A stretch of 64,000 bases of DNA from Somniosus microcephalus (GCA_052327205.1 CM126206.1:257300001-257364000), one strand, 5' to 3'. Shown: positions 9,475 through 48,170, counted from the first letter of the stretch. Program-made: numbers and translations. The notes: generated from the sequence alone by a model not told the origin.

Positions 9475-10067
9475 GTGACCGCTTTGCGGAACACCTCCGT
9501 TCAGTCCGTAAGGGTGACCCCGAGCTTCCGGTCGCCTGTCATTTTAATTCACCGCTCCATTCCCACTCGGACCTCACTGTCCTTGGCCTCTTGCATTGTT
9601 CCACGGAAGCTCAACGTAAACTCGAGGAACAGCACCTCATCTTCCAATTAGGCACGTTGCAGCCTTCCGGACTCAATATCGAGTTCAACAATTTCAGATC
9701 ATAACCTCGGCCCCTATTACATTTTTACTTATTTTTTTTTCCACCCTTTTGTTTTGGGTCTTCCCTTTCCCCCACCCACCCCTTTCCTTTTTTTTCTCTC
9801 TCCCACATGGCAGCTGTCTCTCATCCTGCCAGTACACTTCACACCTAAACTGAGCCGTCTTTGTCTCCTCTGTCCTATTACCATCTCGTCTGGTTTTGAA
9901 TACCTCTTAATGTCTCTTTACTTCTTTTGTTCTATCGCAGCCTTGCCTTCGATCTATTTCATTTCCTTTCCAGTTTTGAAAAAGGGTTTCGACCCGAAAC
10001 GTCGACTCTATTTTCTCTCCACGGATGTTGCCTGGCCTGCTGAGTTTTTCCAGCATTTTCTGTTGTT
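9475..10067 (+). mobile_element. 5'-truncated Penelope-like element (family B): GIY-YIG C-terminal half, 3' UTR and pLTR with hammerhead
   Basis: 'DRFAEHLRSV...LPVACHFNS..HSHSDL...RKLEEQHLIFQLGTLQPSGLN' is a PLE endonuclease C-terminus. A hammerhead-like motif sits at 9972-10007. A second copy lies at 63749. Confidence 0.88.
9972..10007 (+). ncRNA. Minimal type I hammerhead ribozyme motif, U3/A8 core variant
   Basis: AGTT-TTGAAAA-A-GGGT(TTCG)ACCC-GAAA-CG-TC-GACT: stem I AGUU/GACU, stem II GGGU/ACCC, palindromic ACGU stem III and a GUC cleavage triplet. Confidence 0.65.
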
Positions 10068-10574
10068 ATTTAAAATTCTCATCCTCATTTTCAAATCCCT
10101 CCATTGCCACCCTATCTCCTTACTAGTCTGGAATACAAGCAAACTGTGAAATTTAAATATACTAACAGATCTCCTATGGCATTACTCAGAGACAGAGGGT
10201 ATGCTGTTTTATTATTATAGGGGTGTTGTTCCATGTAACACAAAATGCACAGATTTTTCTAGCTACATTCCTTTGCATTTGATTTGTACGTTCCATGCCT
10301 CTCCACTTCTGATTTGCTGTTGTTTTACTTCGAGCCAAAGTGTGACATGAAGGAAATGTGATGCTTATAGAAAGTGTATGCAGTACACAAAATATTGCAT
10401 ATATTCTTGAAATTCCAACACACACTCATTGTAATTACTGCAAGCACCCCAGGGAGTACCTTGCAAAATTCAGTAAACAGCTGCATCCATGTATGTTCTC
10501 CCCTTCCCCCACCCACCCCCCCCCCAAAAAAAAATGTTCCCCTCATCAATGTTTCTGCTTCCCTCCCTGGGTAT

Positions 10575-10900
10575 AGTACCACAGCGCTGCTCACCCTCCT
10601 GTACCTTACCCAAGTGGCCCTTATTCACGGAAGAGCCTGGGCAAAAAAAATCAGAAGCCTAAATGACTGTGGACTACATCACTGTCAAGCGAAGTCTTTG
10701 TCGGGCACTGGAATGTGTACTTCCAGTGTGGGTCACTGGACATTAGAGGTGGCTGATCTTCCCCTCCCTAACTCAAGAGTGCTGAAGCCCGCTGCAGCTC
10801 CCCCACTATCGCCAGACCGAGATGAGCTAATTTACCACAGACTGGTAATTGGACCTGGGAGGACCAAACCAGTCTGTGTGATTTTAGCTTCACTTGAGCC
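10575..10900 (-). mobile_element. Old unclassified SINE-like repeat fragment
   Basis: Reverse complement of the CCAGGTCC...AATTAGCT...GATC...CCACTTGGGTAAGGTAC family seen at 23640, 40480, 53275 and 59050. Confidence 0.55.
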
Positions 10901-12284
10901 AACAGGGGGACCTTGTAATGAATTACATAACAGGCAGTAGTTTTAAATGTGAAACTAACTCAATGGACATCAGCAAAAAATCCTGATAAACATGGTAAAC
11001 CAGATCAACAGCACTTAACTTGCAAATGCAGCAGCATGTGGTTTGTGCCACATAGCTATCTATAATAATATTTTTTAAACTATGTATTGACACATTTCCC
11101 GTCTGTCATGCTTCAGATGTCCATCACAGTCTAATGCAAATTTCTGTGTCACTTGAAAAAATGTATAAAGAAACAAAGGCAATCATTAGGAATGTCATGC
11201 TATCCAGCCTCATACTCAAGCCACATACTAGAGCCACAATGTCTCCATCCTCTTAATTGATCTATGTAGGAACAACCCAGTATTTATCAATTAGCCATTA
11301 AGGACAAATAACTACATATTAGCATAATAATGCATCGTGCTCCTGTCACTACAGGAGATTATAGAAACTGTAGGATCAAGCACTTATTTCTTGCCTATCA
11401 CACTAAGATTTGAGTGTCCACACTTCAACACAAAAAGGTATACAGAAACAAAGACAGTCATTTGACACAGGAGCCAGAATGTCTGTAACCTCAATGACGT
11501 TACAAATTACATTTGTTCTTTGGGGCAGGTGGAAGAAAAATCAGAAAGCAATGCAGGGCTGTGGCCTGCAACACTAATCCATGGTTTATTTAACAGCAAT
11601 TAGTGGCCTTAAAGAGACAGAAGTTCACCTTGACAGCAGAATATATAGTGCATTACATGATATAACATGGTGTTTATAAAAAAGGTACAGTGTACTGATG
11701 AGACCCTGATGAATGCCAAATTCTGCACAATACACCTCCCCCATATACATTCCAAAAAAACATACCAAGTCCACCAAAAACAAGTAGTAGACAACAACGG
11801 CTGGATCAAATGGAAATCAATAGAAACCTACCCTTAACTACTTGATTAGGCTTTTCTTGGCTGGTAAAATTTAAACTGCCCGTGCAGCCAAGTCCCCCAA
11901 CATTACAAAACTGCAATTTTTAAGCAACAAGCATCCATAAAGTGGGACTCCAGACATCAGGTATAGAAACTGTAAGTGATATATGAACTGGGATATCCTT
12001 TGATTTGCTAAAGTAACAAAAAAAGTGCTAAACCTAAATATTTGCCATTAAATAATAAAGTATGCTAGATACACCTCGTGGTAAAGGGGTATGCCAACTC
12101 TTTAGAAACAGTGAAGAATTATTAATGGAGACAGTGCTAATGGCAACATAAGCAAGTTGCAGCCAACAATCAGTTTTCCTAAAATTTGACCAAAAGCGAA
12201 AGCAACAGTGAGATGTTGAGCACTAATCTGATCCAAGAACAGGAAATTAGATCTTGAATGATTAATTGTAATCCAATAAAAATA

Positions 12285-13810
12285 TTTGCATTTATATATG
12301 GTCTTTCCAATTGAAACATTAACATTTTATGCCATTTTTAAAATTATAAAGTAAAGTAGTGACTATTATGTAGCTAAACATGGCAGCCAGCTGCACACAG
12401 CTATGTTTTGCATAAGAACATAAGAATTAGGAGCAGGAATAGGCCATACGGCCCCTCGAGCCTGCTCCACCATTCAATAAGATCATGGCTGATCTACGAC
12501 CTCAACACCACTTTCCTGCCCAATCCCCATATTCCTCGATTCCCCTAGAGTTCAAAAATCTATCTATCTCAACCTTGAATATACTCACGACTGAGCATCC
12601 ACAGCCCTCTTGGGCAGAGAATTCCAAAGATTCACAACCCTCTGAGTGAAGAAGTTCCTCCTCGTCTCAGTCTTAAAAGGCCGACCCCTTATCCTGAGAC
12701 TATGCCCCCTAGTTCTGGACTCTCTAGCTGTGGGAAACAATCTCTCAGCATCTATCCTGTCAATCCCCCTCGGAATCTTTTCAATGAGATCCCTCATTCT
12801 TCTAAATTCTAAAGAGTATAGGCCTAATCTACTCCAGGAGAACCCTCTCATCCCAGGGATTAGTCCAGTGAACCTTTGTTGAACCGCCGCCACAGCAAGT
12901 ATATCCTTCCTTAGATAAGGAGACCAAAGCTGTGCACAGTACTCCAGGTGTGGTCTTACCAAGGCCCTGTACAATGGTAGCAAGACTTCCTTACTCTTGT
13001 ACTCCAACCCCCTAGTAATAAAGGCCAACATGCCATTTACCTTCCTCATTGCTTGCTGTACCTGCAATGCTAACTCTGGGTTCCCTGTACGAGGACACCG
13101 AACTCTCTCTGAACACCAACATTTAATAGTTTCTCACCATTTAAAAATTTTTTCCGTTTTTCTATTCTTCCTACCAAAGTGAATAACCTCATATTTCTCC
13201 ATCTGCCACCTTATTGCTCGCTCACTTAATCTGTCTATATCCCTTTGCAAGTTCTGTGTCCTCCTCACAGCTTACTATCCTACCTAGCTTTGTATCATCG
13301 GCAAACTTGGATACATTACACTCTGTCCCTTCATCGAAGTCATTAATATAGATTATAAATAGCTGAGGCCCGAGCACTGATCCTTGCAGCACCCCACTAG
13401 TAGCAGCCTGCCAATCTGAAAAAGACCCGTTTATCCCAACTCTCCGCTTTCTGTCCATTAACCAATTCTCTATCCAAGCTATTACCCCCAACCCCATGAG
13501 CCCTTATCTTGTGCAAAGAGCCATAAAATGAATGTCCAGTCAATTGGCATTAGGGGTTGTGAAAAGAATGTGTGCCAAGATGTCTACTCTTCTTCAAACA
13601 GTGTCATGGGACATCCAACTGAAATCAGTGAAATAGGCAGACAGAACTCTGGGTCAACATCTCATCTGAAGGATGGCATCTCCAAATAACCGATCATTCA
13701 GGGAGTACTGCACTGAACTGTCTGCCTAAACTATGTGCCCTAGCCTTGGTGTGTGGCTTGGATCCACAACCTTCTGACCAAGAGGCACGTGTGTTACCAA
13801 ATGAGCCAAG
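12285..13810 (-). mobile_element. Old Deu-SINE split by a CR1 insertion
   Basis: Tail TTTGCATTTATATA at ~12285. The body resumes at ~13515 (ACATCTCATCTGAAGGATGGC...CCACAACCTTCTGAC...GAGCCAAG). Confidence 0.65.
12411..13515 (-). mobile_element. 5'-truncated CR1 LINE (RT C-terminal half and 3' UTR), frameshifted
   Basis: ORFs 13222-13497 (GVLQGSVLGPQLFIIYIND...KFADDTKL) and 12585-13067 (LYRALVRPHLEYCAQLWSP...RRNFFTQRVVNLWNSLP). 3' tail is (TTCTTATG)n. Confidence 0.95.
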
Positions 13811-15225
13811 CAGTTTGTACGCAGCATTTGACCTTCCAAACTCATCTTAACATGGCTGTAAACAGAGCTAACATTGTACGGCACTTAGCACCAGAATTTG
13901 AACTTAAGTAGGCTTCCCTGAAACTTCAGAGATTTGAGGTAACCCTAACAGATAGGGATGGGTTGGAAATCTCACCATTGCTCAAATTACCCTTCTGCGA
14001 AGTTGGGATGATGATTTGCTTTCTTCTTCCCATAGATTCCAAGAGGAAGTAGGTGAAAAGCAGCATTCCACATCAGGGACAAAAATACCCACTTTAGAAG
14101 AAAAAAAGCCTGCTGATATTCCTGGGGTGAGATAGATCTTACTACCCTAGCTGGAGGAAGCCAAGTGAAATAAAACATTGTGGGGTGAAGGAAAACAAAA
14201 AAGTCACAGATCAGAATCATTTCTATGTCCAACAGATCCAAATGCACTAGTGATTTTAATGACCAAAGTTAAAACGTTCAAAATGAGTCACTACTACGGA
14301 AAATGATCACTACTGCACCGATATTGCAGAAGTTTCATTCAAAAAGAAACCTTAAAACTAGCAATCAACACACACTGCAGAGGATGGCATTCTTCCAGTG
14401 TCCAGACTAACATTCCTCCCTCAACCGATACCAGCACATTCATTGGTTTTTGTGGGAGCTTGTGGTGCATAAATTGGCTACTGCATTTGCCTACATAACA
14501 GCAGCTACACTTCAAAAGTAATCTATTGGCTGTGAAGCGATTTGGAACATCTTACTACTGCACTCCGCTGAATTACAAAATGTACAACAGTTCAGATATG
14601 CAGAATTCAACTCCTTTAAAAAGCACTATGTGAAGGCTGCAGGTTGTTAACTGGTAGCTTAATGGATGCTGTGACAGTAATAAGAATCATGCTGCATTAT
14701 AAAGATAACGGTATTACTGCATGCTTTATTTAAACCTCCAATTGAGACAGCATTAGATGAATTTGAAAAACCAAAGCACTGGAGCAAGTACTGAAGCTGC
14801 ATGATGTGATACTATACTCCAATAGGAAGGCACAGGGGACAAGTTTCACTCAGCATAAAATAGAGGGGCAGTGTCCCAAAACACACAGCTGCTGCAATTT
14901 TTTAAAATACAGACACCTGAAATTACTAGGAAAGAAAAAAAAATACTGTGCACGATTCTCTTTTTTCTGTGTAGTGTGTGTGTTCTGAATCAGCATTACT
15001 GGCTTTCTTCCAAGACTCCAGTGGGTTTTCCCCTGTTGAAGTACCCTACCTTAGCCTCTTTCCTGGGATCTCTCTAGCAATGTAACCAGCAGCTGGGCTG
15101 TTGTGCAGTGATTACACCATTACACAGCTACATTCACAGGCATCATTCTCCCCAGAGTTTTGCACCCGACATATGGAGGTCAAGCAATGTGCCAGTACGA
15201 ATCTCAGTATAACAAGTTTGTGTGC

Positions 15226-15265
<40 letters not shown>

Positions 15266-15334
15266 CATTTGAGCTTTTTACCATTTAAATTTGTGCTTTT
15301 TACCATTTAAGTGCTTGAAAACCATGAAGGAAAA

Positions 15335-15680
15335 AGAAAGAGACTTGCATTTCTGTAGCACTTTCAAACATCTCAAAGCAGTTCACACAATGAATTACTC
15401 AAGTACAGTGGCTGTTATGTGGACAAATGCAGCAACCATTTTTGTACACAGCCAGATCCCACCAATAGGAATGAGATGTATCTGTTTTTTGGCAGTGTTA
15501 GTTGAGGGACAAATTTTGGCCACGACAACAAGAAAGTGTTGCTCCTTCAAATAGTGCCATGGGGATTGTCAAAACCTTCCTCAAACAAAGAGCCTTTTTT
15601 TTTTAACAAAAAAAAGAGGACGGCACCTCCAGCAACGCAGCATTCGCTCAGTACTACATTGGTGTGTCAGCCTTGATTAC
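15335..15680 (-). mobile_element. Deu-SINE fragment
   Basis: AAAGAAAGAGACTTGCATTT...CTTCAAATAGTGCCATGGG...GGCACCTCC...CTCAGTACT, reverse of the SacSINE1-like body. Confidence 0.7.
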
Positions 15681-16606
15681 ATACTTTGCATTCCATCAAT
15701 CTCCTGGAATTTGTTAACATTTAACACATGTAAGATTAAGAATCTAATCCATCACTCCAAAGATCACCATTCTCCACTTCTTCTCCCTGCCCAAAACCAC
15801 AGTTTACCATGTGACCATTCGAACACAGCAACATGACTGTCCCCAGGATACTATAATAAATTCCAGTTATATGTAGTGTATCTAAATAAATAACTCTCTG
15901 TCCTACAGAACAACCAATAAAAAGCGTTAACTCGGTTAATGCCAAATGGGCACAGATGCATTAAGAGTACATTTACTGTTCAGAATAAACATCTGAAAAT
16001 AACAAAACTACGATTAATAATCCAGTGGTTAATTATGTGCTGATTGGTTTCAGGCAGATGTTGCCCATCACACTGGATTGTGACTGTTCAAAACCTTAAA
16101 AGGATTAGAAGGACTAGATTTCAGAGCAATTTAATAGGCTACACCAGTAACTATAATCAACTTAATAGAACACAGTACCCAAATTTCTTGCAGTTCAATA
16201 AGCTTAAGTGTATTTGCTTTCAACTTCATTTACCCCAATTTTTCAAGTCATTCTTCTCTTCCTTTCATCCCGAACAAAACAAAATCGCTCAGCAGCCATG
16301 TCGCAACTTTGCCTCATCTGAGAGCAGCCAGAGGCACTTGTAGGCTTCAAGGTTGAAGTCATGCAAAAAATATGTAAATAGCAGTAAACGTCCATTTAAA
16401 AAAATTAACAAATCGAGCAAGGCCATTGTGAACTGAGAAGATTACCCCAAGGCTTTGTAAATTGTTCTCATTATTCCTTGCAAGTGCCTTGGGACATCTT
16501 GCATGTTAAAGGTGCTATACAAATGCAAGTCATCATCTTACTAACCAACTCGATATCTTGCACCAGCACTGAGTGACAACACATTCTCAAACTTTAAATG
16601 TTGCTG

Positions 16607-16704
16607 CTGTCTGATGAAAGGTCATCGACCAGAAACTTTAACTATTTCTCTCTCCACAAATGCTGCCTGACCTGCCGAGTGTTTCCAGCATTTTCTGTTT
16701 TTAT
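16607..16704 (+). mobile_element. ~100-bp non-autonomous PLE-derived element beginning at a hammerhead core
   Basis: CTGATGA-A-AGGTC-ATC-GACCA-GAAA-CTT-TAACT, then the tail TTTCTCTCTCCACAAATGCTGCCTGACCTGCCGAG. TSD TTTAAATGTTG at 16593-16603 and 16705-16715. Confidence 0.8.
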
Positions 16705-17267
16705 TTTAAATGTTGGTGTCGGACTTGACTGCTACTAGTGAAAAGTTGCAAGAACTGGCATTTTGATCAAAGCACCATCACAGCCGGGCACAATCCAGCC
16801 TTCCACATGCACACATCCAGCAGGTGGCTGTACCTTCAGGGAGGAGGGAAGGAGGCAAAATTTAAATTCCAAAAGCAGGGTTTTTTTTGCCGACGTGTTG
16901 CACAGGATACTGGACGGTTCAAAGTGCATTTGCAATTCGAGGGAAAAACATGTGCAAATACTAAGTGGTGGTGACCACACTAGGCTTTGCAATGGCCATA
17001 AATGAATGAAATTATGTTTCATGAAAACTGTCCCTCAAGAAGAGCAGAGGGTTAAGATCCAAATCTGCCAGAGATCATCTGCAATAGGTTTAGTTTAATG
17101 GTGATTTTAAATTGCTAGTTAATAGACAGATATGCTTCTGCAGTAAGGATTGCTTTGAGAAATATGAATAGAACAGTTTTTGAAAATCAAACTAAAAGGG
17201 GACCTCTACCTGAAAGTTCATTCTTTTCTAAATACAATTCTAGTTTATCACAGGCCCATTTAATTCT

Positions 17268-18257
17268 TTGGTCGGATCTGCGGGTAACTGTCTGTAGTGT
17301 TCCTGGTTGTCCAGTTGTCGGTATACTTCTTTGCAATAGTCCGTTCTGTATGACGATGGCACCTCCTTTGTCTGCTGGTTTGATGACGATGTTGCGGTTG
17401 GTCTTGAGAGCGTGGATGGCGTTGCGTTGTGCTCGGGTGACATTCTGGACTGTCTTGTGAGTGCGGCTGATGAATCTGGCGTTGATGCATCTCCTGACAG
17501 CTTGAGCATACATGTCAAGCTTAGGGCAGCGACCCTCCGGAGGGGTCCAATTTGACTCTTTCTTCTTCGGTAGCTGCACTGCGGATCCCTCTGTCTGCTG
17601 TTCCGGATCATTGATTGTCTCATTGGGTTCGCTGCTGACATCTTGGGATTTGTGGAAGAATTCCCGGAGCCTCATTCTCCTGATGAATTCCTCTGTGTCT
17701 GCCGCGAGACCGATGGGGTCCATTTTGGTGGTGGGGCAGAAATTGAGCCCTCGGCTGAGAACTTCAATTTCGTCTGGTTGAAGGGTGTGGTCGGACAGGT
17801 TGACGATAGATTTCCCTGTGGTTTCAACCGTGGTACCAGGGGAGGCTTGGTTGCTGCTGGTGGTGATGCCAAGTTTCTCAAGCTTCCTGTTCTTGGCGTG
17901 CATGTAGGTAGCGTAGTTCCGTTGCCTTGTTTGTTTGGCGGTGTCTCGTAGCTGGTCTGCTGCGTCCTGAGCACAGGCCGAGAACATGGACTCCATCTCG
18001 GTTTCAAGGTTGCGGCGTCTGCTGTAGAGCTGGTGTACGAGATGGTTGAGGAGTGTGCGAGAGGTACGATGGCAGAGTCTCTCAGCGTAGTCTGTGTTGT
18101 AGGTCGACTTGAGTGGGTTAGTGATCTGTAGTCCTTTCGGGATCTTGTCTGCTTTCTTGCATCTCTGTAGAAACTTGATGTCTGTGTCAATATGCGCGAT
18201 CTTCTTGGAGATCCTCTCCACTTTGAGCCGGCAGTTTGTGGTGTCGATAGTAGTCAT
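17268..18257 (-). pseudogene. PLE ORF N-terminal region (MTTIDTTNCRLKVE...IKPADKGGAIV...YRQLPADPTKE), frameshifted and truncated
   Basis: Contains the PLE motifs 'IVNLS..L...E.EVLSRGLNFCPT' and 'IVIKPADKGGAIVI'. The frame shifts near 17340 into 'RTDYCKEVYRQLD'. The ATG at 18257 directly follows the pLTR. The run-on of the tracked ORF to 17187 is flanking DNA. Confidence 0.9.
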
Positions 18258-18428
18258 GGTGTGGAGATGCCGGAGTTGGACTGGGGTGGACAAATGTAAG
18301 AAGTCACACAACACCAGGTTATAGTCCAACAGCTTTATTTGAAATCACAAGCTTTCAGAGCGCTGCTCCTTCTTCAGGTGAAGTGGAGAAATGCATAAAG
18401 ACACAGCTTATATAGTCAGAGAATCATG
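18256..18428 (-). repeat. 5' pseudo-LTR copy (inverted), 173 bp
   Basis: Reverse complement of 19871-20043, with one mismatch seen (in hammerhead stem II). Confidence 0.95.
18345..18381 (-). ncRNA. Minimal type I hammerhead ribozyme in the inverted pLTR
   Basis: Minus strand reads TCAC-CTGAAGA-A-GGAGC-AGC-GCTCT-GAAA-GC-TT-GTGA. Confidence 0.75.
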
Positions 18429-19569
18429 CACAAGTTCGAGCAAGACTTCTTCACTGCACAGGATCTCCAACCAACGCTATACACCAGATACATCGACGAC
18501 ATTTTCTTCCTATGGACCCACGGCGAAGAATCACTGAAAAGACTACACGATAATCAACAAGTTCCATCCCACCATCAAACTCACCATGGACTACTCCTCA
18601 GAATCGGTCTCATTCCTGGACACACGAATCTCCATCAAAGACGGACACCTCAGCACTTCACTCTACCGCAAGCCCACGGACAACCTCACGATGCTTCACT
18701 TCTCCAGCTTCCACCCTAACCACGTTAAAGAAGCCATCCCCTATGGACAAGCCCTGCGAATACACAAGATCTGCTCAGACGAGGAGGAACGCGATGGACA
18801 CCTACAGACACTGAAAGACGCCCTTGTAAGAACGGGATATGACGCTCGACTCGTCGATCGACAGTTCCGACAGGCCACAGCGAAAAATCGCATAGACCTC
18901 CTCAGAAGACAAACACGGGACACAACCAACAGAGTACCCTTCGTCGTCCAGTACTTCCCCGGAGCGGAGAAACTACGCCATGTTCTTCGCAGCCTTCAAC
19001 ATGTCATCGATGACGACGAACACCTCGCTAAGGCCATCCCCACGCCTCCACTACTCGCTTTCAAACAGCCGCCTAACCTCAAACAGACCATCGTTCGCAG
19101 CAAATTACCCAGCTTTCAGGAGAACAGCGACCACGACACCACACAACCCTGCCACAGCAACCTCTGCAAGACATGCCAGATCATCAACACAGATACCATC
19201 ATCACACGTGAGGACACCACCCACCAGGTACATGGTACATACTCATGTGACTCGGCCAACGTTGTCTACCTCATACGTTGCAGGAAAGGATGCCCCGGAG
19301 CATGGTACATCGGCGAGACCATGCAGACACTGCGACAACGGATGAACGGACACCGCGCAACAATCACCAGGCAGGAGTGTTCCCTCCCAGTCGGGGAACA
19401 CTTCAGCAGTCAAGGACATTCAGCCTCCGATCTTCGGGTAAGCATTCTCCAAGGCGGCCTTCGAGACACACGACAACGCAAAATCGTCGAGCAGAAACTG
19501 ATAGCCAAGTTCCGCACCCATGAGGACGGCCTCAACAGAGATCTTGGGTTCATGTCACGCTACATGTAA
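18426..19569 (+). pseudogene. PLE reverse transcriptase C-terminal half plus GIY-YIG endonuclease, one frameshift (~18555)
   Basis: 'MHKFEQDFF...YTRYIDDIFFLW' continues after a shift into 'NKFHPTIKLTMDYSSESVSFLD...LYRKPTD...SFHP...IPYGQALR', 'CHSNLCKTC', 'NVVYLIRC...YIGET...LRQRMNGH...PVGEHF...GLNRD'. Confidence 0.93.
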
Positions 19570-19575
19570 CCCCAC

Positions 19576-19728
19576 CTGACGCAGGGTCATCCAGACTCGA
19601 GTCGACATTGGCTTGTTCTCTCTACACAGATGCGGCCGGACCTGCTGTGATTTCCAGCCAAAAAAAATGTTTTTTGTCTGCTTTTTTGTTTTTCATACAG
19701 ACCCCAGCATCTGCAATATTTTACCCCT
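19576..19728 (+). mobile_element. Degenerate hammerhead mini-element embedded just after the PLE stop codon
   Basis: CTGACGCA-GGGTC-ATCCA-GACTC-GA... plus the tail CTCTCTACACAGATGCGGCCGGACCTGCTG...CCAGCATCTGCAATATTT. Flanked by TGTAACCCCACCT (19565-19577) and TGTGACCCCACCT (19729-19741). Confidence 0.6.
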
Positions 19729-19870
19729 TGTGACCCCACCTCATTGTTCTTTGATGTAATGTTTCCCCGACTGACCTGTTTGGACACCATTCACACCTTT
19801 GACTGCTGTGATTATCTCTCTGCCGAGGTGTGATAAATGGCAGTTGGAAAGGTTACCTGTAAACATCTGA

Positions 19871-20043
19871 CATGATTCTCTGACTATATAAGCTGTGTCT
19901 TTATGCATTTCTCCACTTCACCTGAAGAAGGAGCAGCGCTCCGAAAGCTTGTGATTTCAAATAAAGCTGTTGGACTATAACCTGGTGTTGTGTGACTTCT
20001 TACATTTGTCCACCCCAGTCCAACTCCGGCATCTCCACACCAT
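19871..20043 (+). repeat. 3' pseudo-LTR segment, 173 bp
   Basis: Matches 18256-18428. Contains TATATAA (~19885), a hammerhead (19918-19954) and AATAAA (~19960), and ends at the ORF start context ACACCAT. Confidence 0.95.
19918..19954 (+). ncRNA. Minimal type I hammerhead ribozyme in the 3' pLTR
   Basis: TCAC-CTGAAGA-A-GGAGC-AGC-GCTCC-GAAA-GC-TT-GTGA: intact CUGANGA/GAAA core, stem I UCAC/GUGA, 5-bp stem II and palindromic AGCU stem III. Confidence 0.8.
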
Positions 20044-20547
20044 TTAATTCTCAACAAGGAGAAAATCTTTTGAGGGGAACTATAATGAGGTGCCACCTTT
20101 CAAATGTCCTGCTCATTTAAAACGATCAGTGGCATCAAATGAAAAGTATATGCAGAGCTGCAGTGCGGGATATGGATGGTGAATCTACATAGAATGGTGT
20201 GACCTCTCCAGTTATTTATGTAATCTATACAATGAGTGAGCAAAATGCTAGTTACATTTTCAGGCTCCTAAATGAAAGATACCGTAAGTCACTAAGAGAA
20301 GTTGTGTATGCGGGTTTGTAGCATCAACAGTACAAAAAGTAGTTACAATTAGAATTTTCTAAATGAGAAAACAGCAATCGTTGCCATCTGCACTAGAACA
20401 GTATGGGTAAAATAAGAGAAGTTTACACGCAACAGTCAAGTAGATGCAGGTAACCAGTGTTGCATTTAAGGAGCAGACCCAAGTCACTACACAACAGGAG
20501 AACTGGAAAGTGATGCCACTCAAGATTTCAGCCTAGTTCTGAAAAGA

Positions 20548-20745
20548 AAACTACAAATGCTGGTAATTTCAAAATGCTGAAAAATACTGAGCAGGCCTAT
20601 CAGCATCTGTGCAAAAATACAGGTGACTCTTTTGGGTCTTCTCAGGATGGATTCCACACCCGAAAGGTTAACCGGTCTTTTGTTTTTACAGATGCTGACT
20701 GGCCTACTGTAACTCCAGCATTTTCTATTTTTAGTTTCAGCGAAT
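20548..20745. mobile_element. Old palindromic PLE-derived mini-element
   Basis: Inverted arms AAAATGCTG...CAGCATCTGT / ACAGATGCTG...CAGCATTTTCT with a residual CCCGAAAGGTTAAC. Confidence 0.6.
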
Positions 20746-20799
20746 GTTGCAATTTCAATTGCTTCGTACCATCAAGTAGCTCAGAACCAAACAGCTCTG

Positions 20800-25039: not shown

Positions 25040-25155
25040 CAGTGTTCCCTTTAAGCTGTGCAGCGCTGTGGAAGTCCTGCGCAGCTGGTGAGCGGCTTTT
25101 AAATGGAAAAACTGCATATGCGTGGAATTTTGCACGGGCCTTAGAAGGAACATTG
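25040..25155 (+). mobile_element. hAT-type MITE
   Basis: TIRs CAGTGTTCC / GGAACATTG; 8-bp TSD CCCAGCAC / TCCAGCAC. Confidence 0.8.
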
Positions 25156-26653: not shown

Positions 26654-27809
26654 CCCGTGTGTAGCAAAGATAAAGATAAAGATAGAGAAACATGTGGGTT
26701 AAATAATTTCAATGGTTTTTTTTCCCCCTTGAAGCACAGACTAGCTTAAATTATGAGGAAGCAATACCATCGAGAAATGTTGTACTCTCCCTTTCATCCC
26801 TCCCCCAGTATTAGCTGTATGAGTATATACACTGCCTTTACCACCAGCGTCATTAGAGAGCCCATCAAATTGGTCTTTTTAAGCAGCACTCTGAACAAAT
26901 GCCACCTTTCCCACTTTTGCTCAAATTGCATTTGTACATCAGGAGTGAGCTTTTTATTTTGCCTTTTGGCAAGTCCTTTGCATCAGAGGATGCGGCTTGC
27001 AATGCAGGCTTTGAACACATCCCTGCCCAGCATTTTCCCTGCATCCATCCACTAAACCTAAGCAAACTGGTTTGTTAACAAGAAGCAGGCCTCTCTCTAC
27101 ACTTGTCCACTAAGGGCATGATTACATCACGTGACTAGCCACAGTGTCAAATATCAATAAGTACACAGGACCCTCTCCATAAAGCTGTCTTCAGTAGCTA
27201 TACGAGAAACAGGTTACAGCAAAGACCATGTTGCAGACGGAGTTTTATATGTTCTCTGTATTAATAAGAGCCATAAACACTGCATGTTATATCACAAGCT
27301 ATGGTATAATGATGAACAAATGGGCCATTTTCATTAACCAATAGTTGCCATTTCTGAACAGCAAAGCTGTTGCACATTTATAAATACATTATACAACACG
27401 AAAATATTCAAAATATTGAAATGCTCCTACCAATTACATTAGTGAAAGCAATTCATGGGACCTGAATACGGTAGATTCTTCCTCCCCAATACACCACAGT
27501 GGTAATAAATGGGTGGTCCGGTTCCGCCAAGCACCAAGAGCACCCTACACAGATCAAATTCACAATACGAAAATCTGAACTGCACAATATAATAAAGCCA
27601 AGGACCAGCACCCTTTATCTTGAGATACAGTAGTGGCTGAACAGGGAGCAGAGCCTAACAATGATGACCCATATTCTCTAAATTGGGGTGTCTGTGAGCT
27701 ACATAGCTGCGTATCAATGAACCTCAGTAGCCACATATATAAAGTTTCAATCCATGTTCCCAGTAATTTACACACATCTCAAGTTGCTGACAGATTAACA
27801 GATCTTGGG

Positions 27810-27904
27810 TAAAAACAGAAAATGCTGGGCACACTCAGCAGGTCAGGCAGCATCTGTGGAGAGAGAAACAGAGTTAATGTTTCAGGTCGATGATCCTTCG
27901 TCAG
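27810..27904 (-). mobile_element. ~95-bp hammerhead-headed PLE-derived mini-element
   Basis: Minus strand reads CTGACGA-A-GGATC-ATC-GACCT-GAAA-CA-TT-AACT plus tail. TSD AACAGATCTTGGG / AACAGATTTTGGG (27797-27809, 27905-27917). Confidence 0.8.
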
Positions 27905-28299
27905 AACAGATTTTGGGGTTCTGATTAAGGATTTAACTACCAATGCGAAAAACAACCCTTTGCAAACCTCCAGGCCAACAAAATTCAAAAAAGGACAAAC
28001 CAGCAAATAAATAGAAGCGGAAATAGGATCGAGTTGCCTGGGTCTTTCGACTAGAGAACCATAGCTCCAATTCTCCACAGGGCAAGCCCCCAGTCTCATT
28101 GTACCATTAATGGAATAGAGGAGGCAAGAATAAATTAAGCAACATCTGGGTAGTTCTCCTTCTGCTATCAGCATATCACTGGGTGCAGTGTGTACCAAAA
28201 GAACGAGGGGTTGGGGGGAAGAGAAAGAAAGAGCCAGAACGCTAGAGAGAAGGGGGAGTGAAAAGAGGGAAAGCAATGTCCTGGATTTGTGACGGCGGC

Positions 28300-32915: not shown

Positions 32916-34139
32916 TAGTTAGAAATCGGACACTTTTTAGGTCCTGCATGACCATACTGCTGTGCAACTGTTCAGAATCACCCTGCTCAGGCAAAAATGA
33001 AAACTAACCTGCAAGGAGATCGTTCCAATGAGCCACTATTGCTCTTTGTACAAGAATGGCCTGTACTATACAAGCGCTTTGCAGATGATAGGAAAAAAGT
33101 GCATTAGAATCATTTAATGAAATATTTGGGATAGAATTCTAAATATGTACTTCTGTACAGAGGGACGACAAGAATGGAACACTTTGGGCTCTTCGGTCAT
33201 CAATTGTTCCCAGGCCAGATAAAGAACGAGCAAAATATACAAAATAATGGTCCCTCTACTCTGCTCCAACTTGGCTCAACCTCGGAAGAGCAAGTCATTC
33301 CCTACCACTGCATCAGTGTAACGTGCCAACTCCCCACACCACACCACCCATTCTTGTGGCCCAAGTGAAATTTCGTACCAAATCAAGGATTTATTTTCAT
33401 CAACGAGCAGAGTTCTACCCCATCAATTTAGGCTGGATTTAAATGCCCTTGACCTCCAATATGAGCGCGCAATGCTGTGTCTAACCCATTGCATTTTCCG
33501 GTCAACTTAAAGAGATATACTTAACATTAAAACACATGCCAGATTGGAGAAGATGCCTAACCAAAGAATATGCATTATCTGTGCAGACCAGAAAATAGAC
33601 ACAAATTCATTTCTTCTACAGTGAAGCCCACAGGCACCTGGGAAATGTATAGAACAAATTTAGCATGCAAATTCTGCGACAATCAACCCAAAAGTTATGA
33701 TTAAAAATACACAAGTCAGACATTCTGCACATTTTATAGTAACATGAGGCGAGTACTTTCAAAAAGAAATTCTGTATTTTTAAATATCTGCCTTGAAGTC
33801 ACCTCACGTACAAATAAAATTAGTCACCACAAAGACAATTGGGTTACCAAGTCAATTTTACAATGGAGTAAGAAACATCAACCATTACAGAAAAGTAATG
33901 CCAGATTATCATGTGTTAAGAGTCAAATTGATGATGTTAAAAAAAAACTCTCACTTCCTCAGGATGTACCAAAGCACTTTACAACTAATTATTAGACACT
34001 TATGTAGGGAAACTCAGCAACCAATCTGGACACAGCAAGGTCCCACAAATAGAACCACTCTACTTTGGCTGGACTGTAGGTAAATAATTGGCTTTTTTTT
34101 TTAAAAAGGTGCAGAATTATTTTACAAGAGCATAATACT

Positions 34140-34335
34140 GTGGTGCTGGAAATCGGAAATAAAACAGAAAATGCTGTAAATACTCAGCAGGTCAGGCAGC
34201 ATCTGTGGAGAGAGAAACAGAGTTAACATTTCCGGTTGATGACCTTGCATCAGAACTGGAAGAAAGGTCATCGAGTTGAAATGTTAACTGTTTCTCTCTC
34301 TCCACAGATGACCTGTTGAGTATTTCATTATTTTG
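34140..34335. mobile_element. Palindromic PLE-derived mini-element with two decayed hammerheads
   Basis: Arms ...CATCTGTGGAGAGAGAAACAGAGTTAACATTTCCGGTTGATGACCTTGCATCAGAACT / GAAAGGTCATCGAGTTGAAATGTTAACTGTTTCTCTCTCTCCACAGATG. Confidence 0.75.
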
Positions 34336-41893: not shown

Positions 41894-42240
41894 CGGTGGC
41901 ATAGTGGTTAGCACTGTTGCTCACAGCGCCAGGGACCCGGGTTTGAATCCGGCCTCGGGTGACTGTCTGTGTGGAGTTTGCACATTCTCCCCGTGTTTGC
42001 GTGGGTTTCCTCCGGGTGCTCCGGTTTCCTCCCACAGTCCAAAGATGTGCGGGTTAGGATGATTGGCTATGATAAATTGACCCTTAGTGTTACGGGGATT
42101 AAATACGTGGGGTTACGGGGATAGGGTGGGATATGTGTTGGTGTAGGGGTTACGGGGATCGGGTGGGATATGTGTCGGTGCAGGCTCGATGGGCCGAAAT
42201 GGCCTCTATCTGCACTGTGGGGTTTCTGTGATTCTGTGAA
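41894..42240 (+). mobile_element. V-SINE (HE1-like), near full length
   Basis: tRNA head GTGGCATAGTGGTTAGCACTG...GGTTTGAATCC; V-domain TGTGTGGAGTTTGCACATTCTCCCCGTG...GGTTTCCTCCCACAGTCCAAAGATGTG; CR1-like tail GGGCCGAAATGGCC...TTCTGTGA. Confidence 0.92.
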
Positions 42241-42704
42241 ATTGACTGGCTCACGGAAGACAGCGTGTTCTTTTCAGTCAGCTGTTCAAACACACACTAA
42301 TCACAGTCAACAAGCCAGAGTGGAACCAACTTTGTTAAAATTCAGAGGTAAATTATGCTGGATAAACAAAGCTGTTCCACAGCAGAGCCAAACTTTGTAG
42401 CAGTTGAGGGGGGAAAATGATAGAGTGAACAATTATACGCCCTGCAGCATGCCTAGGAGGGACTACAAACTACTCCTTTAATTGCTGCATCTGCATGGCC
42501 ATCATCTTTTGCATCTTACCTGCCACTCTAAACTCTTTGGGGTGGAATGGGGAAACACTCAGAAGTTCCCACCTTCAAAGACACTGATGGGGAAGGTAGA
42601 ACAGAACAGAAGTGCAAGTCCCTAGCATCACCAGTGCGGGCACGTCAAATGTCAGTAGGTGCCAAATCCAGAGGGGATAAATATGGGGCAACAGCAAGTG
42701 AGAA

Positions 42705-42952
42705 TATAAACAGAAAATACTGGAAACACTAAGACAGGCAGCTCGTCACATTCCCCTCCCCCCCTCATTCCCTGGCTCTGCACTTGCTTAAAAACTGTTA
42801 AATCTCTAACTTCTTCTAGTTCGGATGAAAGGTCATCGACCTGAAACGTTAACTCCTTTTCTCTCTCTATGATTGCTGCCTGACCTGCAAAGTGTTTCCA
42901 GCATTTTCTGTTTTTATTTCAGATTTCCAGCATCTCCGGTATTTTGCTTTTG
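42705..42952 (+). mobile_element. PLE pLTR-derived element with hammerhead (42818-42854) and short inverted 5' arm
   Basis: AGTT-CGGATGA-A-AGGTC-ATC-GACCT-GAAA-CG-TT-AACT plus tail. The upstream AAACAGAAAATACTGGAAACACT is the reverse complement of that tail. Confidence 0.8.
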
Positions 42953-43589
42953 AGCAAGGTTCCATGAGCCCGCTGTCTCAGTCTTTCATTATGAGATACC
43001 AACACAACAAACCCTGAACCTTTAATTTAATTTACACTTCTTCAAAATTAGAGATCTTAATGATACAACAAATAAAGACACAGGATTCTTTTTATCTTTG
43101 TTTATCTACTTCTAGATCGGCGCCTGATGGCTATCATTTAAACGAGGGCGAGCAAGGTACAAAAACCACACCCTCCATACCAGAACAGAGTGAAGTGTGG
43201 GAGTCCCTGATGCAATTTTTGCAACTTACAAACCTATATTGGAAGAATTTCCTATCCCAATATTACAATCAACTCAAGTTTAAGCCAGTGAACATCACTG
43301 CTGTAAGACTTTGAGCTTTCATTTCCAAGGTGGATTTTTAAAAATCTCTTAAATTTTTTTAACTTTCTCATCCTCGAATACGGTTTCCCAGTAGCGACCA
43401 CGGGCAGCTGACTTGCTCTTCTCAGGCCAATTCTGCTTTTTGAGGAAGACACTAGGTTAAGTACACAAGAGCAGTTCTTTTACATTGGCCTCAGAGCCAT
43501 TTGACACATGGGCAAACCACTCCCAGCAGCAACCCCAATATAAAGCTGCCAGATTTGCTACTGGGAAGACTAATTTGTGACCAGGTTAT

Positions 43590-43870
43590 TCACAGAAATC
43601 ACAGAAACCCCACAGTGCAGATAGAGGCCATTTCGGCCCATCGAGCCTGCACCGACACATATCCCACCCGATCCCCGTAACCCCAACACATATCCCACCC
43701 TATCCCTGTAACCCCACCTATTTAATCCCCCTAACACTAAGGGTCAATTTATCATAGCCAATCAACCTAACCCGCACATCTTTGGACTGTGGGAGGAAAC
43801 CGGAGCACCCGGAGAAAACCCACGCAAACACGGGGAGAATGTGCAAACTCCACACAGACAGTCGCCGGAG
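43590..43870 (-). mobile_element. V-SINE (HE1-like), 5'-truncated, inverted relative to 41894-42240
   Basis: Near-identical reverse complement of ~41955-42240, including the same duplicated GGGGTTAC..GGGAT..GGGTGGGATATGTGT segment. Confidence 0.92.
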
Positions 43871-46799
43871 GTCAGTAAACCTGCACTAGAACAGTATACA
43901 CTAAACCAATGCTGTTTATCACAGGCATTTTCAAAATAGAGCCAATCACTTATATTTGGCAAAGATATGGAAACTAAGTTACAAGAAAGCTGCTTTTAAA
44001 TAGAAAGTAGAACTTTAACGATTGACAGGACAATGACCATTAAAGGCATATCCTTTTGTAAAAAAAAATGGAAATATAGAGTTTCATTACGGTTAAAATC
44101 TAACCGAGCATTTCTACACAGTTGGTAAATTAGTGTTCACAGCAAGAAACAAGCCTCTTCCACCCCCCTGATAAAGAAACAGAAAAATATAAGCCTTTTC
44201 TCTCAAGATTTTTTTTTTTTTTTAATTAAGTACAGAGCATTGTCAAACCTCTGGCCTCACTGCATTTCATAGTCATGGTGGTGCAAGTTAAAAAAAAATG
44301 TGCAGGGAACCCATCACGTCTGTTCCTGTACCATGTGCTGCCAGAGAAACTGGGTCAGGCTGTAGTCAGGCAGAACATACAGCTGCAGTCCTCTAGGCTG
44401 GCAGAGCTCCAAAACAGCAGGCCTGGCAAAGGGGGAAGAGACACGCTGGCCTCTCCTTCACTATTTTGTTGTGAAATGAGAGAGGATTTTTTTTTTGGCT
44501 CATCTTCTCCACCCCCTTCCCCTAAGAAAAAAGGAAAAAGAAAACCTGCAGTTTGGTTTTTGTTATTAACAATAGAATTCTTGGATGGCTCTTTTATAGT
44601 TCCTTCTTTCCAAGTGGTGCCGACCATCACAGCTCTGATGTTTTTTTGAAACGCATTCGGCAAAAGAGCCTTGGCACCTGGGCGAGAGTGTGTTACAAGG
44701 ACGTAACATAATCGAGGGGCTCAGATGACATGAACCAGAGGCTGAGGTACAGCTTTGTAGCACATAGTGCAAGCTAGCTTTCTTCTCTATTCATATAAAA
44801 ATACACACCAATCATCATGAGAAAGGAGTTAAGAGTCCATTGAGATTGCTGCAGTGTACCAATGTATGATTTGCGTCAATAATTGAAAAGATACCAATTT
44901 TCAGTGATAAAATACTACAAATATTCAGAAACTAGAATTTAAAATGTGTGTGTTTAAACATTTGTGCTGTATATAAGTCTAAGACTGTTCTCTTACTGTC
45001 AAGAGAAAGTTGTTTAGACTTAGGTGGCTCATGTGGAGAAATGCACTAGTACAGATCTAATGGGCCAAATGGCCTGTTTTTGAGCCGTAAGATTCTACGG
45101 TTTGTAGCCCCTTTCAGAATTACAAGATCAAGTGATGCCGGGCAACCATTAACTAGAAGAATTAGCAACTTTGTTTTTTAAACGTTCTTGCATTACCAAG
45201 TATTGGACCAAAATGACAATAGGCAACGAATCAGGGAATCCTGGATCCTTAAACAGAATATCCTTTTATAAAGGGATTTCCTATATTTGCTATTGAATCA
45301 GCTATGAGAACAAATTGTAATCAGAGTTTGTAATGTGCCATACAGTGTTTAGAGATTACACATACAGTACCAACTGGGCCTAGTAAATCAATGGAAGGAG
45401 CTGCTGCGTGTGGAGCTACTGATTCAACAGCAGCTTCTGAACAGGCCAAAAGGTCACCAACTTCATCAAAGAGTCTTCAAAATATAGCTTTGTTTGGGGA
45501 GAAGCAGCAAAACCCTGTGCAGCCTTTTCCTCAGTGATAATGACGTGGACAAGTACTGCATCATACATCTTATTCTAATTATCTGTTTCTAAACATCTGT
45601 TACCATGTTGTTACTTGGGGCCAATGGCCCAACTATGTGACCTCAGAACGGGGATACTTGTACAGTCATGCTCACCCAGCTCCCTGGCCTCTTTCCTGCC
45701 CCCTCCTCCAATGACAGAGCCATCCCTGGCCCAGACAGCCTCAGCTTGCACCCAACCAGCTCCCTTCCCACATCCAGGCAGCCCCAGTGCAGTATCACTT
45801 GTTCTGCAACTCCTCTCAACCCTTCAAATACACTCTGCCCTAAACCCAGCAGGGGCCCTACCTCCCCACACTCTCTCTCAAATGTTGCAGTACTGGGTGC
45901 ACCATCTCAGGCTATGCCCACAGGATTGGATTCGGGCACAATTGTGACAGGAAAACCATACAGCACAAATCAGAGGCACAACCCAGCCTCAGCCCACCCC
46001 CCTCATTTCCATTCTTTATACCCAGGGACAGATTTAATCATTTCTGCAACTATCAGAGGGTTAACCACCACTCTCTTCTGCACCCCCAAGTCCAAGTCTC
46101 GATGAGAAGAGAGGAGCGAAAGAGTCGTATATGCAGGGAGATATACAAGGCATACAGTGGGAAAAGGAGGGAAGAGACATAGAAAGAGGGAGAATGAAAG
46201 TGAGCCTTGGAGTCAGAAAAAGAGAGATAAAATGAAAAAGTCTGTGAGGCATAAAGGTGGTGGCTGAGGGGGGGGGGGAACGAGAAAGAGAGGAGGGAAA
46301 GAAACTAAGTAGAAGACGCACAAAGACGGAGAGGGGCAGATGGAAAAAATTAGAGTAGAAGACAAGCAGTTACAGGGAATTTTTTTTAAAATTCCCCATG
46401 AGTAACGCCACAAGACATTTTTTTGTGTTTTATTTTCAAAAGTGGAAAATGGAGACTGGGTCTCTTTAACTAGTTGGAATAAATGACACAAATTGCTACA
46501 AGCTTCCACGAATAGTACAACTTTAACTACCTGACAGCACAAAAGATGTCCGAGAACCTGAGATCTGATAGGAGTTTATACTGCCCAAGTCTGCTATTTG
46601 TGTTTCTATCCCTGATCCAACTGGAGCAGACTCTATGGACCAACAACTGGAGGTCTGAGAGAAGCTGTTCCGCAGGCAGGCATCGATGGTATAAACTGGA
46701 TAATCTGGAAATTGGATGTAGCATTTTTTTTTAATGGGGTGGGGGGGCGGTTACTTAAAACAACTTGGGCACGAACAGCAAACTGCTCTTTGCAAAGTA

Positions 46800-47026
46800 A
46801 CAACAGAAAATGCTGGAAAAACTCAGGTCAGGCAACATCCGTGGAGAGAAATTTGAGTTGACGTTTTGGGTTGGACCCTTCTTCAAAAGGGTCCAGTTTT
46901 GAAGAAGGGTCCAACCCGAAACGTCAACTCAAATTTCTCTCCACGGATGTTGCCTGACCTGCTGAGTTTTTCCAGCATTTTCTGTTGTTATTTCGGATTT
47001 CCAACATCTGCGGTATTTTGCTATCG
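46800..47026. mobile_element. Young palindromic PLE family-B pLTR insertion with head-to-head hammerhead motifs
   Basis: ~90-bp arms (46798-46888 / 46897-46990) differ by one substitution and a 3-nt gap. Perfect 16-bp TSD TGCTCTTTGCAAAGTA (46784-46799, 47027-47042). Confidence 0.9.
46895..46929 (+). ncRNA. Minimal type I hammerhead motif, U3/G8 variant
   Basis: AGTT-TTGAAGA-A-GGGT-CCA-ACCC-GAAA-CG-TC-AACT with a GUC cleavage triplet. Confidence 0.7.
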
Positions 47027-47224
47027 TGCTCTTTGCAAAGTACTGATTAAATTGGGGGTGGGGAAGTTGCATTTATATAGCACCTGGACATCTCAAAGTG
47101 CTTTACAACCATTAGATTAAATGCAGCAGCCAATTTGCACTTAGGAAAGTCCCACAAACAGCAAGTGAGATGAACAGCCAGTTAATCTGTTGTTGATGGT
47201 GTTGTCCAGGCCGCCTAGATTTCT

Positions 47225-47324
47225 CCGTTTCTCTCTCCACAGGTGCTGCCTGATCTGCTGAGTATCTCCAGCATTTTCTGTTATTTTCAGATTTCCAGCA
47301 TCTGCAGTATTTTCTTTTTGTTCT
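47225..47324 (+). mobile_element. pLTR-tail-only mini-element without hammerhead core
   Basis: CCGTTTCTCTCTCCACAGGTGCTGCCTGATCTGCTGAG...CCAGCATCTGCAGTATTTT with 12-bp TSD GCCTAGATTTCT (47213-47224, 47325-47336). Confidence 0.85.
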
Positions 47325-47959
47325 GCCTAGATTTCTGTTAGGTAAGGGTATCCAGGGATATGGAGCAAAGACAGGTAAATGGAGTGGAGATACAGATCAG
47401 CCATGATCTAATAGAATGGCAGCAGGCTTGAGGTGCTGAATAGCCTACTGCTGTTCCTACGCCATTGGAAATTCAGCTGAATAGGCAAATGAGGCCTTGG
47501 TTTCTAGCACCTCTAACAATGCAACACACCCTTAGGGAGGAGGAGAAGGGGAGGGTGGGGCAGCAGAAGCAAGCCTTTAATGCAATAAGCCTGTTCTAGG
47601 CAGATAAAACAAGATCATGGTAATATAAAGAGCCATGGGAAATAATCTATTCAAGTTAAATACTGGATAGCAATAACTGGATAGTAGTACAGTAACTTAC
47701 TATTTTTATGAACTGTGCCAATAGTTTTTAGATCTTATAAGATAATAGTGGGCCAAATTTCATTGTTTCCCCCCACCTATAGCCCATAACCAGTGCTTTA
47801 TGTGGAGATAAATTTCCATCGACACTGGACCTCACTCAAATAGTCTTTCCCAAGCCTCAGACCTGTAGCCAAAGTATAGAACTCAAAATGCGACATCAGC
47901 TTGGATCAGCTATCTCAGTACAGATCAGGCATTGAAACAAAAACCTTCCTAGTCCAACA

Positions 47960-48170
47960 GAGGATGTTACAAATATACAGCTCATCAGTCAGCATCTGTA
48001 AAGAGAAAAGATATTTTGGGTACAACACCCTTCCCCAGAAATCAGACCAATGTTTTTGGCTGCAAGGATGCCAAGTTCTGATGAAAGGTAACACCTGAAA
48101 CATTAACCCGTTTTCTGATTGATCTGCTGTGCGTTTCCACAATGTTTTGTTTTTATGAGATTTCCAAATT
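47960..48170. mobile_element. Old palindromic mini-element; plus-strand hammerhead at 48074-48108 has an intact core
   Basis: AGTT-CTGATGA-A-AGGT-AAC-ACCT-GAAA-CA-TT-AACC. An upstream inverted arm reads CAGCATCTGTAAAGAGAAA...CCCTTCCCCAGAA. Confidence 0.6.

What the first reader, a model, noticed from the sequence alone, without database searches (positions are those of the whole stretch)
9475..48170. Dense family of small non-coding mobile elements carrying hammerhead ribozymes, found alongside their Penelope-like parents
Seen: about a dozen motifs of the form stemI-(C/T)TGANGA-A-stemII-GAAA-NN-T(T/C)-stemI' at 9972, 16611, 18345(-), 19576, 19918, ~20650, 27872(-), 34221(-)/34255, 42818, 46856(-)/46895 and 48074. 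Most sit in 100-250 bp units sharing the tail TTTCTCTCTCCACAGATGCTGCCTGACCTGCTGAG...CCAGCATTTTCTG. Several units have their own 11-16 bp TSDs. Stem II differs between families (GGAGC/GCTCC, AGGTC/GACCT, GGGT/ACCC, AGGT/ACCT) but stays paired, and stem I co-varies (TCAC/GTGA vs AGTT/AACT). Established: PLE pseudo-LTRs carry minimal type I hammerheads with a palindromic stem III that are thought to cleave as dimers. Inference: the PLE RT/GIY-YIG protein mobilises ribozyme-bearing mini-RNAs, forming a SINE-like or retrozyme-like system at high density in this genome.
Basis: partly seen in the sequence, partly recalled or inferred. Interest (0 to 1): 0.8.

Follow-up and report, generated by a model that had tools for sequence, protein, structure and literature searches.

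The report
Hammerhead-headed stubs of Penelope retroelements
The short hammerhead-bearing repeats are real, but they are the end pieces of two ordinary Penelope-like jumping genes, and about half of them begin right at the front edge of the ribozyme rather than at its cut site, which hints at where the jumping gene's RNA starts.

Summary
The motifs exist, but only 4 of the 13 listed meet a strict minimal-hammerhead descriptor. They belong to two RT/GIY-YIG Penelope-like element (PLE) families. In family A the hammerhead plus "tail" is both the 3' end (23 of 30 RT-bearing loci) and the 5' leader (8 of 16 ORF-start loci) of the autonomous element. Short copies show 9-17 bp TSDs, two 3' ends 36 nt apart and head-to-head pairs, the published PLE insertion pattern. 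They interleave with long copies on a low-resolution tree, lack Pol III boxes and form no tandem arrays. A separate SINE or retrozyme family is therefore not supported. One feature is not random truncation: 5' ends pile up at -8..+6 of the core (20 of 37, 1.6 expected; 39 of 73, 2.7 expected), not at the cut site (+29). Best model (inferred): run-off cDNA from a transcript that starts at the hammerhead's edge, copied from an internal start 100-135 nt downstream on uncleaved RNA. No RNA data could test this. The scan noted the same pattern on other genomes (e1-7858714). Interest is modest.

The parts
9475..10080 (+). 5'-truncated family-A PLE (GGGT/ACCC subfamily): GIY-YIG C-terminal coding part, pLTR, minimal hammerhead (core 9976, U3-A8 variant), short tail; no convincing TSD
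16593..16715 (+). short family-A copy starting at -1 of the core, 6-nt filler, short tail, 11-bp TSD (16593-16603, 16705-16715); hammerhead incomplete
17256..20051 (.). family-B PLE insertion with 12-bp TSD (17256-17267, 20040-20051): inverted arm 18428 to about 17268 (pLTR from -51, hammerhead 18377, ORF N-terminus) joined head-to-head to the forward arm (RT YIDD, Cys linker, GIY-YIG to 19569, pLTR, hammerhead 19922, tail to 20043)
   Evidence: TSD read by eye
19565..19741 (+). old, decayed family-A-type short copy nested in the family-B pLTR, 13-bp TSD; same insertion in L042 and L153
19885..19954 (+). family-B TATA-like box (-37), initiator-like motif (A at -7) and intact minimal hammerhead with palindromic AGCU stem III
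   Evidence: promoter role inferred
20539..20736 (.). old, divergent head-to-head pair related to the family-A tail; core decayed
27797..27917 (-). short family-A copy starting at -3, short tail, 13-bp TSD overlapping the element by 3 nt
34116..34334 (.). head-to-head family-A pair: long-tail arm on minus, short-tail arm on plus; 8-bp low-complexity TSD candidate
42755..42952 (+). family-A copy truncated at -67 in the pLTR, long tail, core U4 changed; no TSD found
46784..47042 (.). head-to-head pair of the GGGT/ACCC subfamily (arms from -7 and -2; long and short tail), 16-bp TSD; plus arm meets the descriptor (core 46899)
48074..48166 (+). decayed short family-A copy starting at -4; no convincing TSD

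Best explanation
The units are dead-on-arrival insertions of the terminal module of autonomous endonuclease-positive PLEs (Neptune-type Cys linker). Shown: a family-A element reads pLTR - hammerhead - about 135 nt of leader - ORF - pLTR - hammerhead - tail. Copies end 3' at two sites (+97, +133) and carry 9-17 bp TSDs. About half stop 5' within -8..+6 of the core; the rest stop at a flat rate of about 0.3% per base. Inferred: the element's protein nicks the target and starts cDNA inside the leader. On the downstream repeat of a long or read-through RNA this gives ordinary truncated copies. On the upstream repeat of an RNA that starts at about -4 (initiator-like motif, AT-rich box 30 nt before it), the RT runs off the RNA's 5' end after 100-135 nt. 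The product is joined by microhomology after a few bases of trimming. Priming on both target strands gives the head-to-head pairs. The RNA is not cut by the hammerhead when it is copied.
For: Module at both ends of the autonomous element (23 of 30; 8 of 16). 5' pile-up: 20 of 37 arms (expected 1.6) and 9 of 26 single copies. Replicated with the bin fixed beforehand: 39 of 73 (expected 2.7), singles 25 of 55 (expected 1.55). The histogram is steep upstream of -5 and smears downstream. TSD near the border in 14 of 24 short singles against 1 of 60 flank-swapped controls; 8 of 11 TSDs in the replicate overlap the element by 1-5 nt. 15 of 17 pairs have one long and one short tail. Short and long copies interleave. 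Contigs of four public runs (four studies) break off at -5..+1 and at +96/97 (table 7). TTAAAA is the majority at -34..-29 in 52 long copies; family B has a TATA-like box at the same spacing from its initiator-like A. The 100 nt upstream of the border are mostly unpaired. Internal RT start at two sites on unprocessed RNA was shown in vitro for an anole PLE (PMC11167929).
Against: No RNA 5' end was observed. A cap-derived extra G is not established: G precedes 11 of 23 ends at -4/-3 against 26 of 130 elsewhere (p=0.018), but 7 of 7 are inverted arms, where the partner may template it, and only 4 of 16 are singles. The GGGT subfamily has border copies but no TATA-like box at -30 (L159). Only 1 of 6 family-B arms seen starts at the border. 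In D. virilis Penelope the start lies about 120 nt upstream of the hammerhead (combining PMC2377424 and PMC4209133). The tree has 96 columns and 76 of 121 inner branches are open. 10 of 24 and 14 of 25 short singles have no clear TSD, so a few could be unrecognised subfamilies with a different pLTR.
Confidence: 0.6

Rival explanations
1. Same parent elements and insertion route, but the border is an RT stop on longer RNA (U-rich tract, the small hairpin at -14..-1, a bound protein or spliceosome parts at the acceptor-like CAG at -5..-3), not an RNA end.
For: The border lies at a polypyrimidine-CAG motif present in both A subfamilies. In D. virilis an intron ends at helix I (PMC4209133). Cap-G is unproven.
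Against: No strong structure upstream. RT pauses usually fall at the 3' foot of a structure, not after it (own knowledge). About half of the copies pass the border and then stop at a flat rate. Fillers share no common exon sequence (by eye).
Confidence: 0.25
2. Independent non-autonomous masters (SINE-like or retrozyme-like) that are re-transcribed and mobilised in trans.
For: Uniform short unit, TSDs, roughly 10^5 copies by extrapolation. Non-autonomous PLE derivatives exist (MRC1, PMC8557442; vertebrate retrozymes, bioRxiv 10.64898/2026.07.22.740005).
Against: No clustering of short copies. 0 of 47 with Pol III boxes or an A-tail. No tandem arrays. 5' ends are smeared over 15 nt and 3' ends use both parental sites.
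Confidence: 0.08
3. Templates are made by hammerhead self-cleavage (linear monomers or circles).
For: Core, stem II and the palindromic stem III are kept across subfamilies and families. 2 of 26 singles start at +26 and +31.
Against: A cut template would start at +29; 9 of 26 singles start about 30 nt further upstream and only 2 near the cut. Hammerhead mutants did not change insertion in vitro (PMC11167929).
Confidence: 0.05
4. Plain random 5' truncation; the pile-up is an alignment artefact of divergent pLTR subfamilies.
For: Single-reference BLAST does break at the hammerhead for the GGGT subfamily (window 9967).
Against: Panels of 16 natural references removed that artefact. TSDs sit at or within about 35 nt of the border. 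Head-to-head junctions fall in the same place.
Confidence: 0.02

Closest known systems
Minimal hammerheads in pLTRs of metazoan PLEs (Cervera & De la Pena 2014, PMC4209133; abstract, results, discussion and start of methods read)
   Same: Type I, no stable stem III, palindromic 15.2-16.2, unpaired base before stem II, U3-A8 variant; mostly single dispersed motifs 'probably related to truncated PLEs'; pairs on opposite strands.
   Different: Cartilaginous fishes and the position of copy ends are not treated in the parts read.
Insertion units of EN+ PLEs: partial tandem, inverted 5' copy, 30-40 bp tail on one end (Craig et al. 2021, PMC8557442; Arkhipova et al. 2013, PMC3846280; passages read)
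   Same: Partial tandems, head-to-head arms, tail on one arm (15 of 17 pairs), TSDs, microhomology at 5' joints, TATA and Inr-like motifs in a pLTR.
   Different: Here both arms often shrink to the hammerhead-headed module; a 15-fold excess of ends at the hammerhead border is not in the passages read.
PAc (Poseidon, Anolis) internal RT initiation (Frangieh et al. 2024, PMC11167929; main text and start of methods read)
   Same: Two 3' ends downstream of the hammerhead that define the tail; uncleaved RNA as template; both strands nicked and extended.
   Different: In PAc the ORF starts inside the hammerhead; in family A it starts about 175 nt downstream. The elements here have a Neptune-type linker. 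Run-off copies are not discussed in the parts read.
Non-LTR retrozymes (Cervera & De la Pena 2020, PMC7229834, passages; Li et al. 2026 bioRxiv 10.64898/2026.07.22.740005, text through discussion; supplements closed)
   Same: Small, non-coding, type I hammerhead, related to PLE pLTRs, TSDs longer than 4 bp, dispersed monomers; reported in one chondrichthyan.
   Different: Retrozymes are defined by tandem units with two or more hammerheads and circular RNA; here the units are single or head-to-head, minimal-type and identical in kind to the parent's end.

Membership tests
EN+ Penelope-like elements | single ORF with RT and C-terminal GIY-YIG | tested here: met
   YIDD and GIY-YIG-type motifs in translations; Atlas score 0.96 to a GIY-YIG/HTH_animal cluster; Pfam and NCBIfam gave nothing relevant
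EN+ Penelope-like elements | partial tandem forming a pLTR with a hammerhead | tested here: met
   8 of 16 ORF-start loci carry hammerhead-tail directly upstream, 7 of them with pLTR sequence
EN+ Penelope-like elements | inverted 5' copy and 30-40 bp tail on one end | tested here: met
   15 of 17 pairs long plus short; 3' ends near +97 and +133
Neptune clade | CX2-5CxxC linker between RT and EN; RT phylogeny | tested here: inconclusive
   linker present in B and A (read by eye); shared with Nematis; no RT tree built
minimal type I hammerhead | core, stems I and II, palindromic stem III | tested here: met
   4 of 13 listed motifs; 18 hits in 664 kb; core columns invariant in 10 hand-picked copies
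minimal type I hammerhead | self-cleavage as a dimer | not testable with these tools
   family-A monomers fold with the core paired off; needs an assay
non-LTR retrozymes | tandem units with two or more hammerheads | tested here: not met
   no array in the window; 2 same-strand neighbours under 500 nt among 150 arms, the window pair being two insertions with separate TSDs
non-LTR retrozymes | abundant circular RNA | not testable with these tools
   only contigs available
SINE | Pol III head (A and B boxes) and A or simple-repeat tail | tested here: not met
   0 of 47 short arms
SINE or non-autonomous PLE | own lineage apart from the autonomous partner | tested here: not met
   38 changes against a shuffled mean of 35.3; 469 of 500 shuffles as low; low resolution

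The most novel reading that the evidence does not exclude
A PLE whose capped RNA begins at the first base of its own hammerhead makes a strong-stop-like cDNA of 100-135 nt and inserts it directly, so the element supplies its own SINE-like class without a separate master. The head-to-head pairs record a dimeric protein priming both target strands, one at each internal start site. About 10^5 such inserts would then be a genomic record of the unresolved steps of PLE integration, and would show that copied RNA is uncleaved in vivo.
Probability: 0.35. Interest if true: 0.6.

Novelty: new member of a known kind. Interest (0 to 1): 0.33.

Why it matters
As a family it is ordinary: PLE hammerheads and their dispersed remnants have been known since 2014. 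The useful part is mechanistic. How PLEs finish an insertion and what their hammerhead does are open questions (stated in PMC8557442 and PMC11167929). The sharp 5' border, the two 3' ends and the long-plus-short pairs give a large natural data set and a precise prediction (a capped start at about -4; no use of the +29 cut) that one CAGE experiment can test. For annotation, these units should be filed as PLE fragments, not SINEs.

Tried and rejected
Rfam: no hammerhead family at E<=1; the miRNA hits at 46850-46935 reflect the fold-back. Pfam: 0 families for 4 ORFs; NCBIfam: one chance hit. Sequencing runs: no RNA holder listed. The contigs laid gave no molecule starts, and none of the 15 of 155 joints shown had GT..AG ends; their depths cannot rank parts. 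None of this bears on expression. Cap-derived G: inconclusive. Three acceptor-like tracts in the leader: the first two are absent in the GGGT subfamily (L159), so I do not argue for them. A type III cut upstream of stem I: no NUH in register (by eye). The set was meant to be tail-only but spans +4..+84, so it shows the pile-up (18 of 34) but cannot test starts at the cut site; the set requires +21 onward and has the same limit. Family-B border pile-up remains open (1 of 6 arms). Literature: 7 answered searches showed no paper on shark PLE stubs or on a 5' pile-up at the hammerhead. The library lacks most subscription papers and Repbase, and Lunse et al. 2017 was seen only as cited in PMC6765202.

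Full report
Setting. The window lies in a 6.45-Gb genome of 2,112 contigs. Its repeats look like those of a cartilaginous fish; that label is recalled and comes from no call. Positions below are relative to the first base of the hammerhead core (C3 = 0). The predicted cut lies between +28 and +29.

Observation. All listed places hold the stated kind of sequence. A strict minimal-hammerhead descriptor finds 5 hits in the window and none in 30 random sequences of the same dinucleotide make-up. Four of the five are among the 13 listed (9976, 18377, 19922, 46899). The other nine listed motifs are decayed or clipped. TSDs of 11-16 bp are real for five units, and one more has an 8-bp low-complexity candidate.

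Two families. Family B (GGAGC/GCTCC) is a young PLE; its copies are 97.5-99% alike and its hammerhead pattern occurs 16,866 times. The window copy spans about 17268-20043 between 12-bp repeats (read). It encodes an RT YIDD motif, a cysteine linker and a GIY-YIG domain. Family A carries the shared tail, and one exact 38-mer of it occurs 8,874 times. The two proteins are about 30% identical. The unit at 19576 is an old A-type insertion fixed in a family-B master: it recurs at the same place in L042 and L153.

The unit is the parent's own end. Loci found with the hammerhead-tail query extend upstream to varied lengths, several into GIY-YIG or RT coding DNA. Of 30 loci chosen by RT sequence, 23 have a hammerhead or tail match downstream within the 1.5-kb flank; this count includes the query's own locus and three partial matches. 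Of 16 loci chosen by the ORF's 5' part (16 of 40 hits fetched), 8 carry hammerhead-tail directly in front of the ORF start, 7 of them with pLTR sequence. This is the partial tandem described for PLEs (PMC8557442, passages).

Copy ends. I sampled 60 arbitrary 10-kb stretches plus the window and found 49 arms at E<=1e-6. I dropped five: one at a locus edge, two nested in family B, one divergent, one unalignable. For the remaining 44, 5' ends were mapped against 16 natural references. Upstream of -9 they stop at about 0.003 per base. In -8..+6, 20 of 37 stop, against 1.6 expected. Among single copies 9 of 26 stop there and 2 of 26 near the cut site. That bin was chosen after seeing the data and paired arms are not independent, so I repeated the test. 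I took 77 of the first 100 listed matches of the 38-mer (3 left out as the second arm of a pair or a locus already held, 20 not delivered). The result was 39 of 73 against 2.7 expected, and for singles 25 of 55 against 1.55. This set cannot show starts beyond +21. A TSD lies near the border in 14 of 24 short singles against 1 of 60 flank-swapped controls, and in 11 of 25 in the replicate, 8 of them overlapping the element by 1-5 nt. TSD lengths run from 9 to 17 bp with a mode of 13, paired arms counted twice. 3' ends fall near +97 or +133, and 15 of 17 head-to-head pairs have one of each. Contigs of four public runs break off at -5..+1 and +96/97 of the same module, so the pattern is not confined to this assembly. 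Extrapolating 37 arms per 599 kb gives about 4 x 10^5 arms, roughly half of them short.

No separate lineage. On a tree of 126 arms (41 short, 85 long; 96 columns, most branches unresolved) the label needs 38 changes against a shuffled mean of 35.3. The resolved subfamilies, such as the GGGT type of 9972 and 46895, hold short, long and tandem copies together. No short arm has Pol III boxes or an A-tail (0 of 47), and there are no tandem arrays.

Mechanism. The steps shown are the anatomy, the two 3' ends, the TSDs, the 5' border and the shared ancestry. For an anole PLE, reverse transcription starts at two internal sites downstream of the hammerhead, both strands are nicked and extended, and hammerhead mutants insert normally (PMC11167929). 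I infer the same here. If the RNA begins at about -4, priming in its first leader gives a run-off product of 100-135 nt, which fits the steep upstream edge and the downstream smear. In support, the border sits in an initiator-like motif (consensus recalled) with TTAAAA 30 nt before it in most of 52 long copies, family B shows a TATA-like box at the same spacing, and the upstream RNA is mostly unpaired. Against, a cap-derived G is unproven (11 of 23 against 26 of 130, driven by inverted arms), one subfamily lacks the box, only 1 of 6 family-B arms starts at the border, and no RNA ends could be read. An RT stop on longer RNA remains the main rival. Either way, most short copies were made from RNA that had not been cut at +29.

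Known context. Minimal hammerheads in PLE repeats, dispersed single motifs and opposite-strand pairs were described in 2014 (PMC4209133). Inverted arms, tails, TSDs and TATA/Inr-like motifs are described in PMC3846280. Tandem retrozymes have been proposed as non-autonomous PLE derivatives; supplements of that preprint were closed and may list chondrichthyan families. Seven answered searches showed no paper on the 5' pile-up. Five earlier notes of this scan on other genomes reach the same reading. I had noted the run-off idea before seeing them, and they are not independent evidence.

Verdict. A real, abundant set of PLE end-module insertions; a new member of a known kind, not a new mobile system. 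The hammerhead-border pile-up is solid and gives a cheap test of where PLE RNA starts and whether the ribozyme acts before copying. Interest 0.33.

Noticed in passing
window 19565-19741; L042:4141-4286; L153:960-1107: A family-B master carries an old family-A-type stub inside its pLTR and has spread it, so one PLE family transports another's decayed hammerhead module.
   Followed up: partly
window 17268-18428: The inverted arm of the family-B copy ends about 1.1 kb inside the ORF, not at a tail site, and starts at -51; it looks like internal second priming on a read-through RNA.
   Followed up: partly
L164:590-780: Polypyrimidine-AG tracts at -3, +51, +103 and just before the ORF's ATG; the first and last are the better kept. 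A possible leader intron was not seen in contigs.
   Followed up: partly
L164:654-726: The tail folds into a hairpin; the +97 end lies inside it and the +133 end just past it. Candidate protein-binding site.
   Followed up: no
window 41953-42233 and 43597-43871: Two SINE-like copies (V-SINE type, label recalled) in inverted orientation 1.4 kb apart are 96-99% alike, far more than other repeats here; they flank the 42755 copy.
   Followed up: no
G000:C5:3151519-3157620: Five or more equally scoring copies of the family-A ORF 5' part at a 1,451-bp period: a PLE-derived tandem array.
   Followed up: no
L059:2081-2200: A short family-B copy from -2 to +117 with a 10-bp TSD, the family-B counterpart of the family-A stubs.
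   Followed up: partly
window 63749-63817: A fragment of family-A pLTR near the window's end.
   Followed up: no
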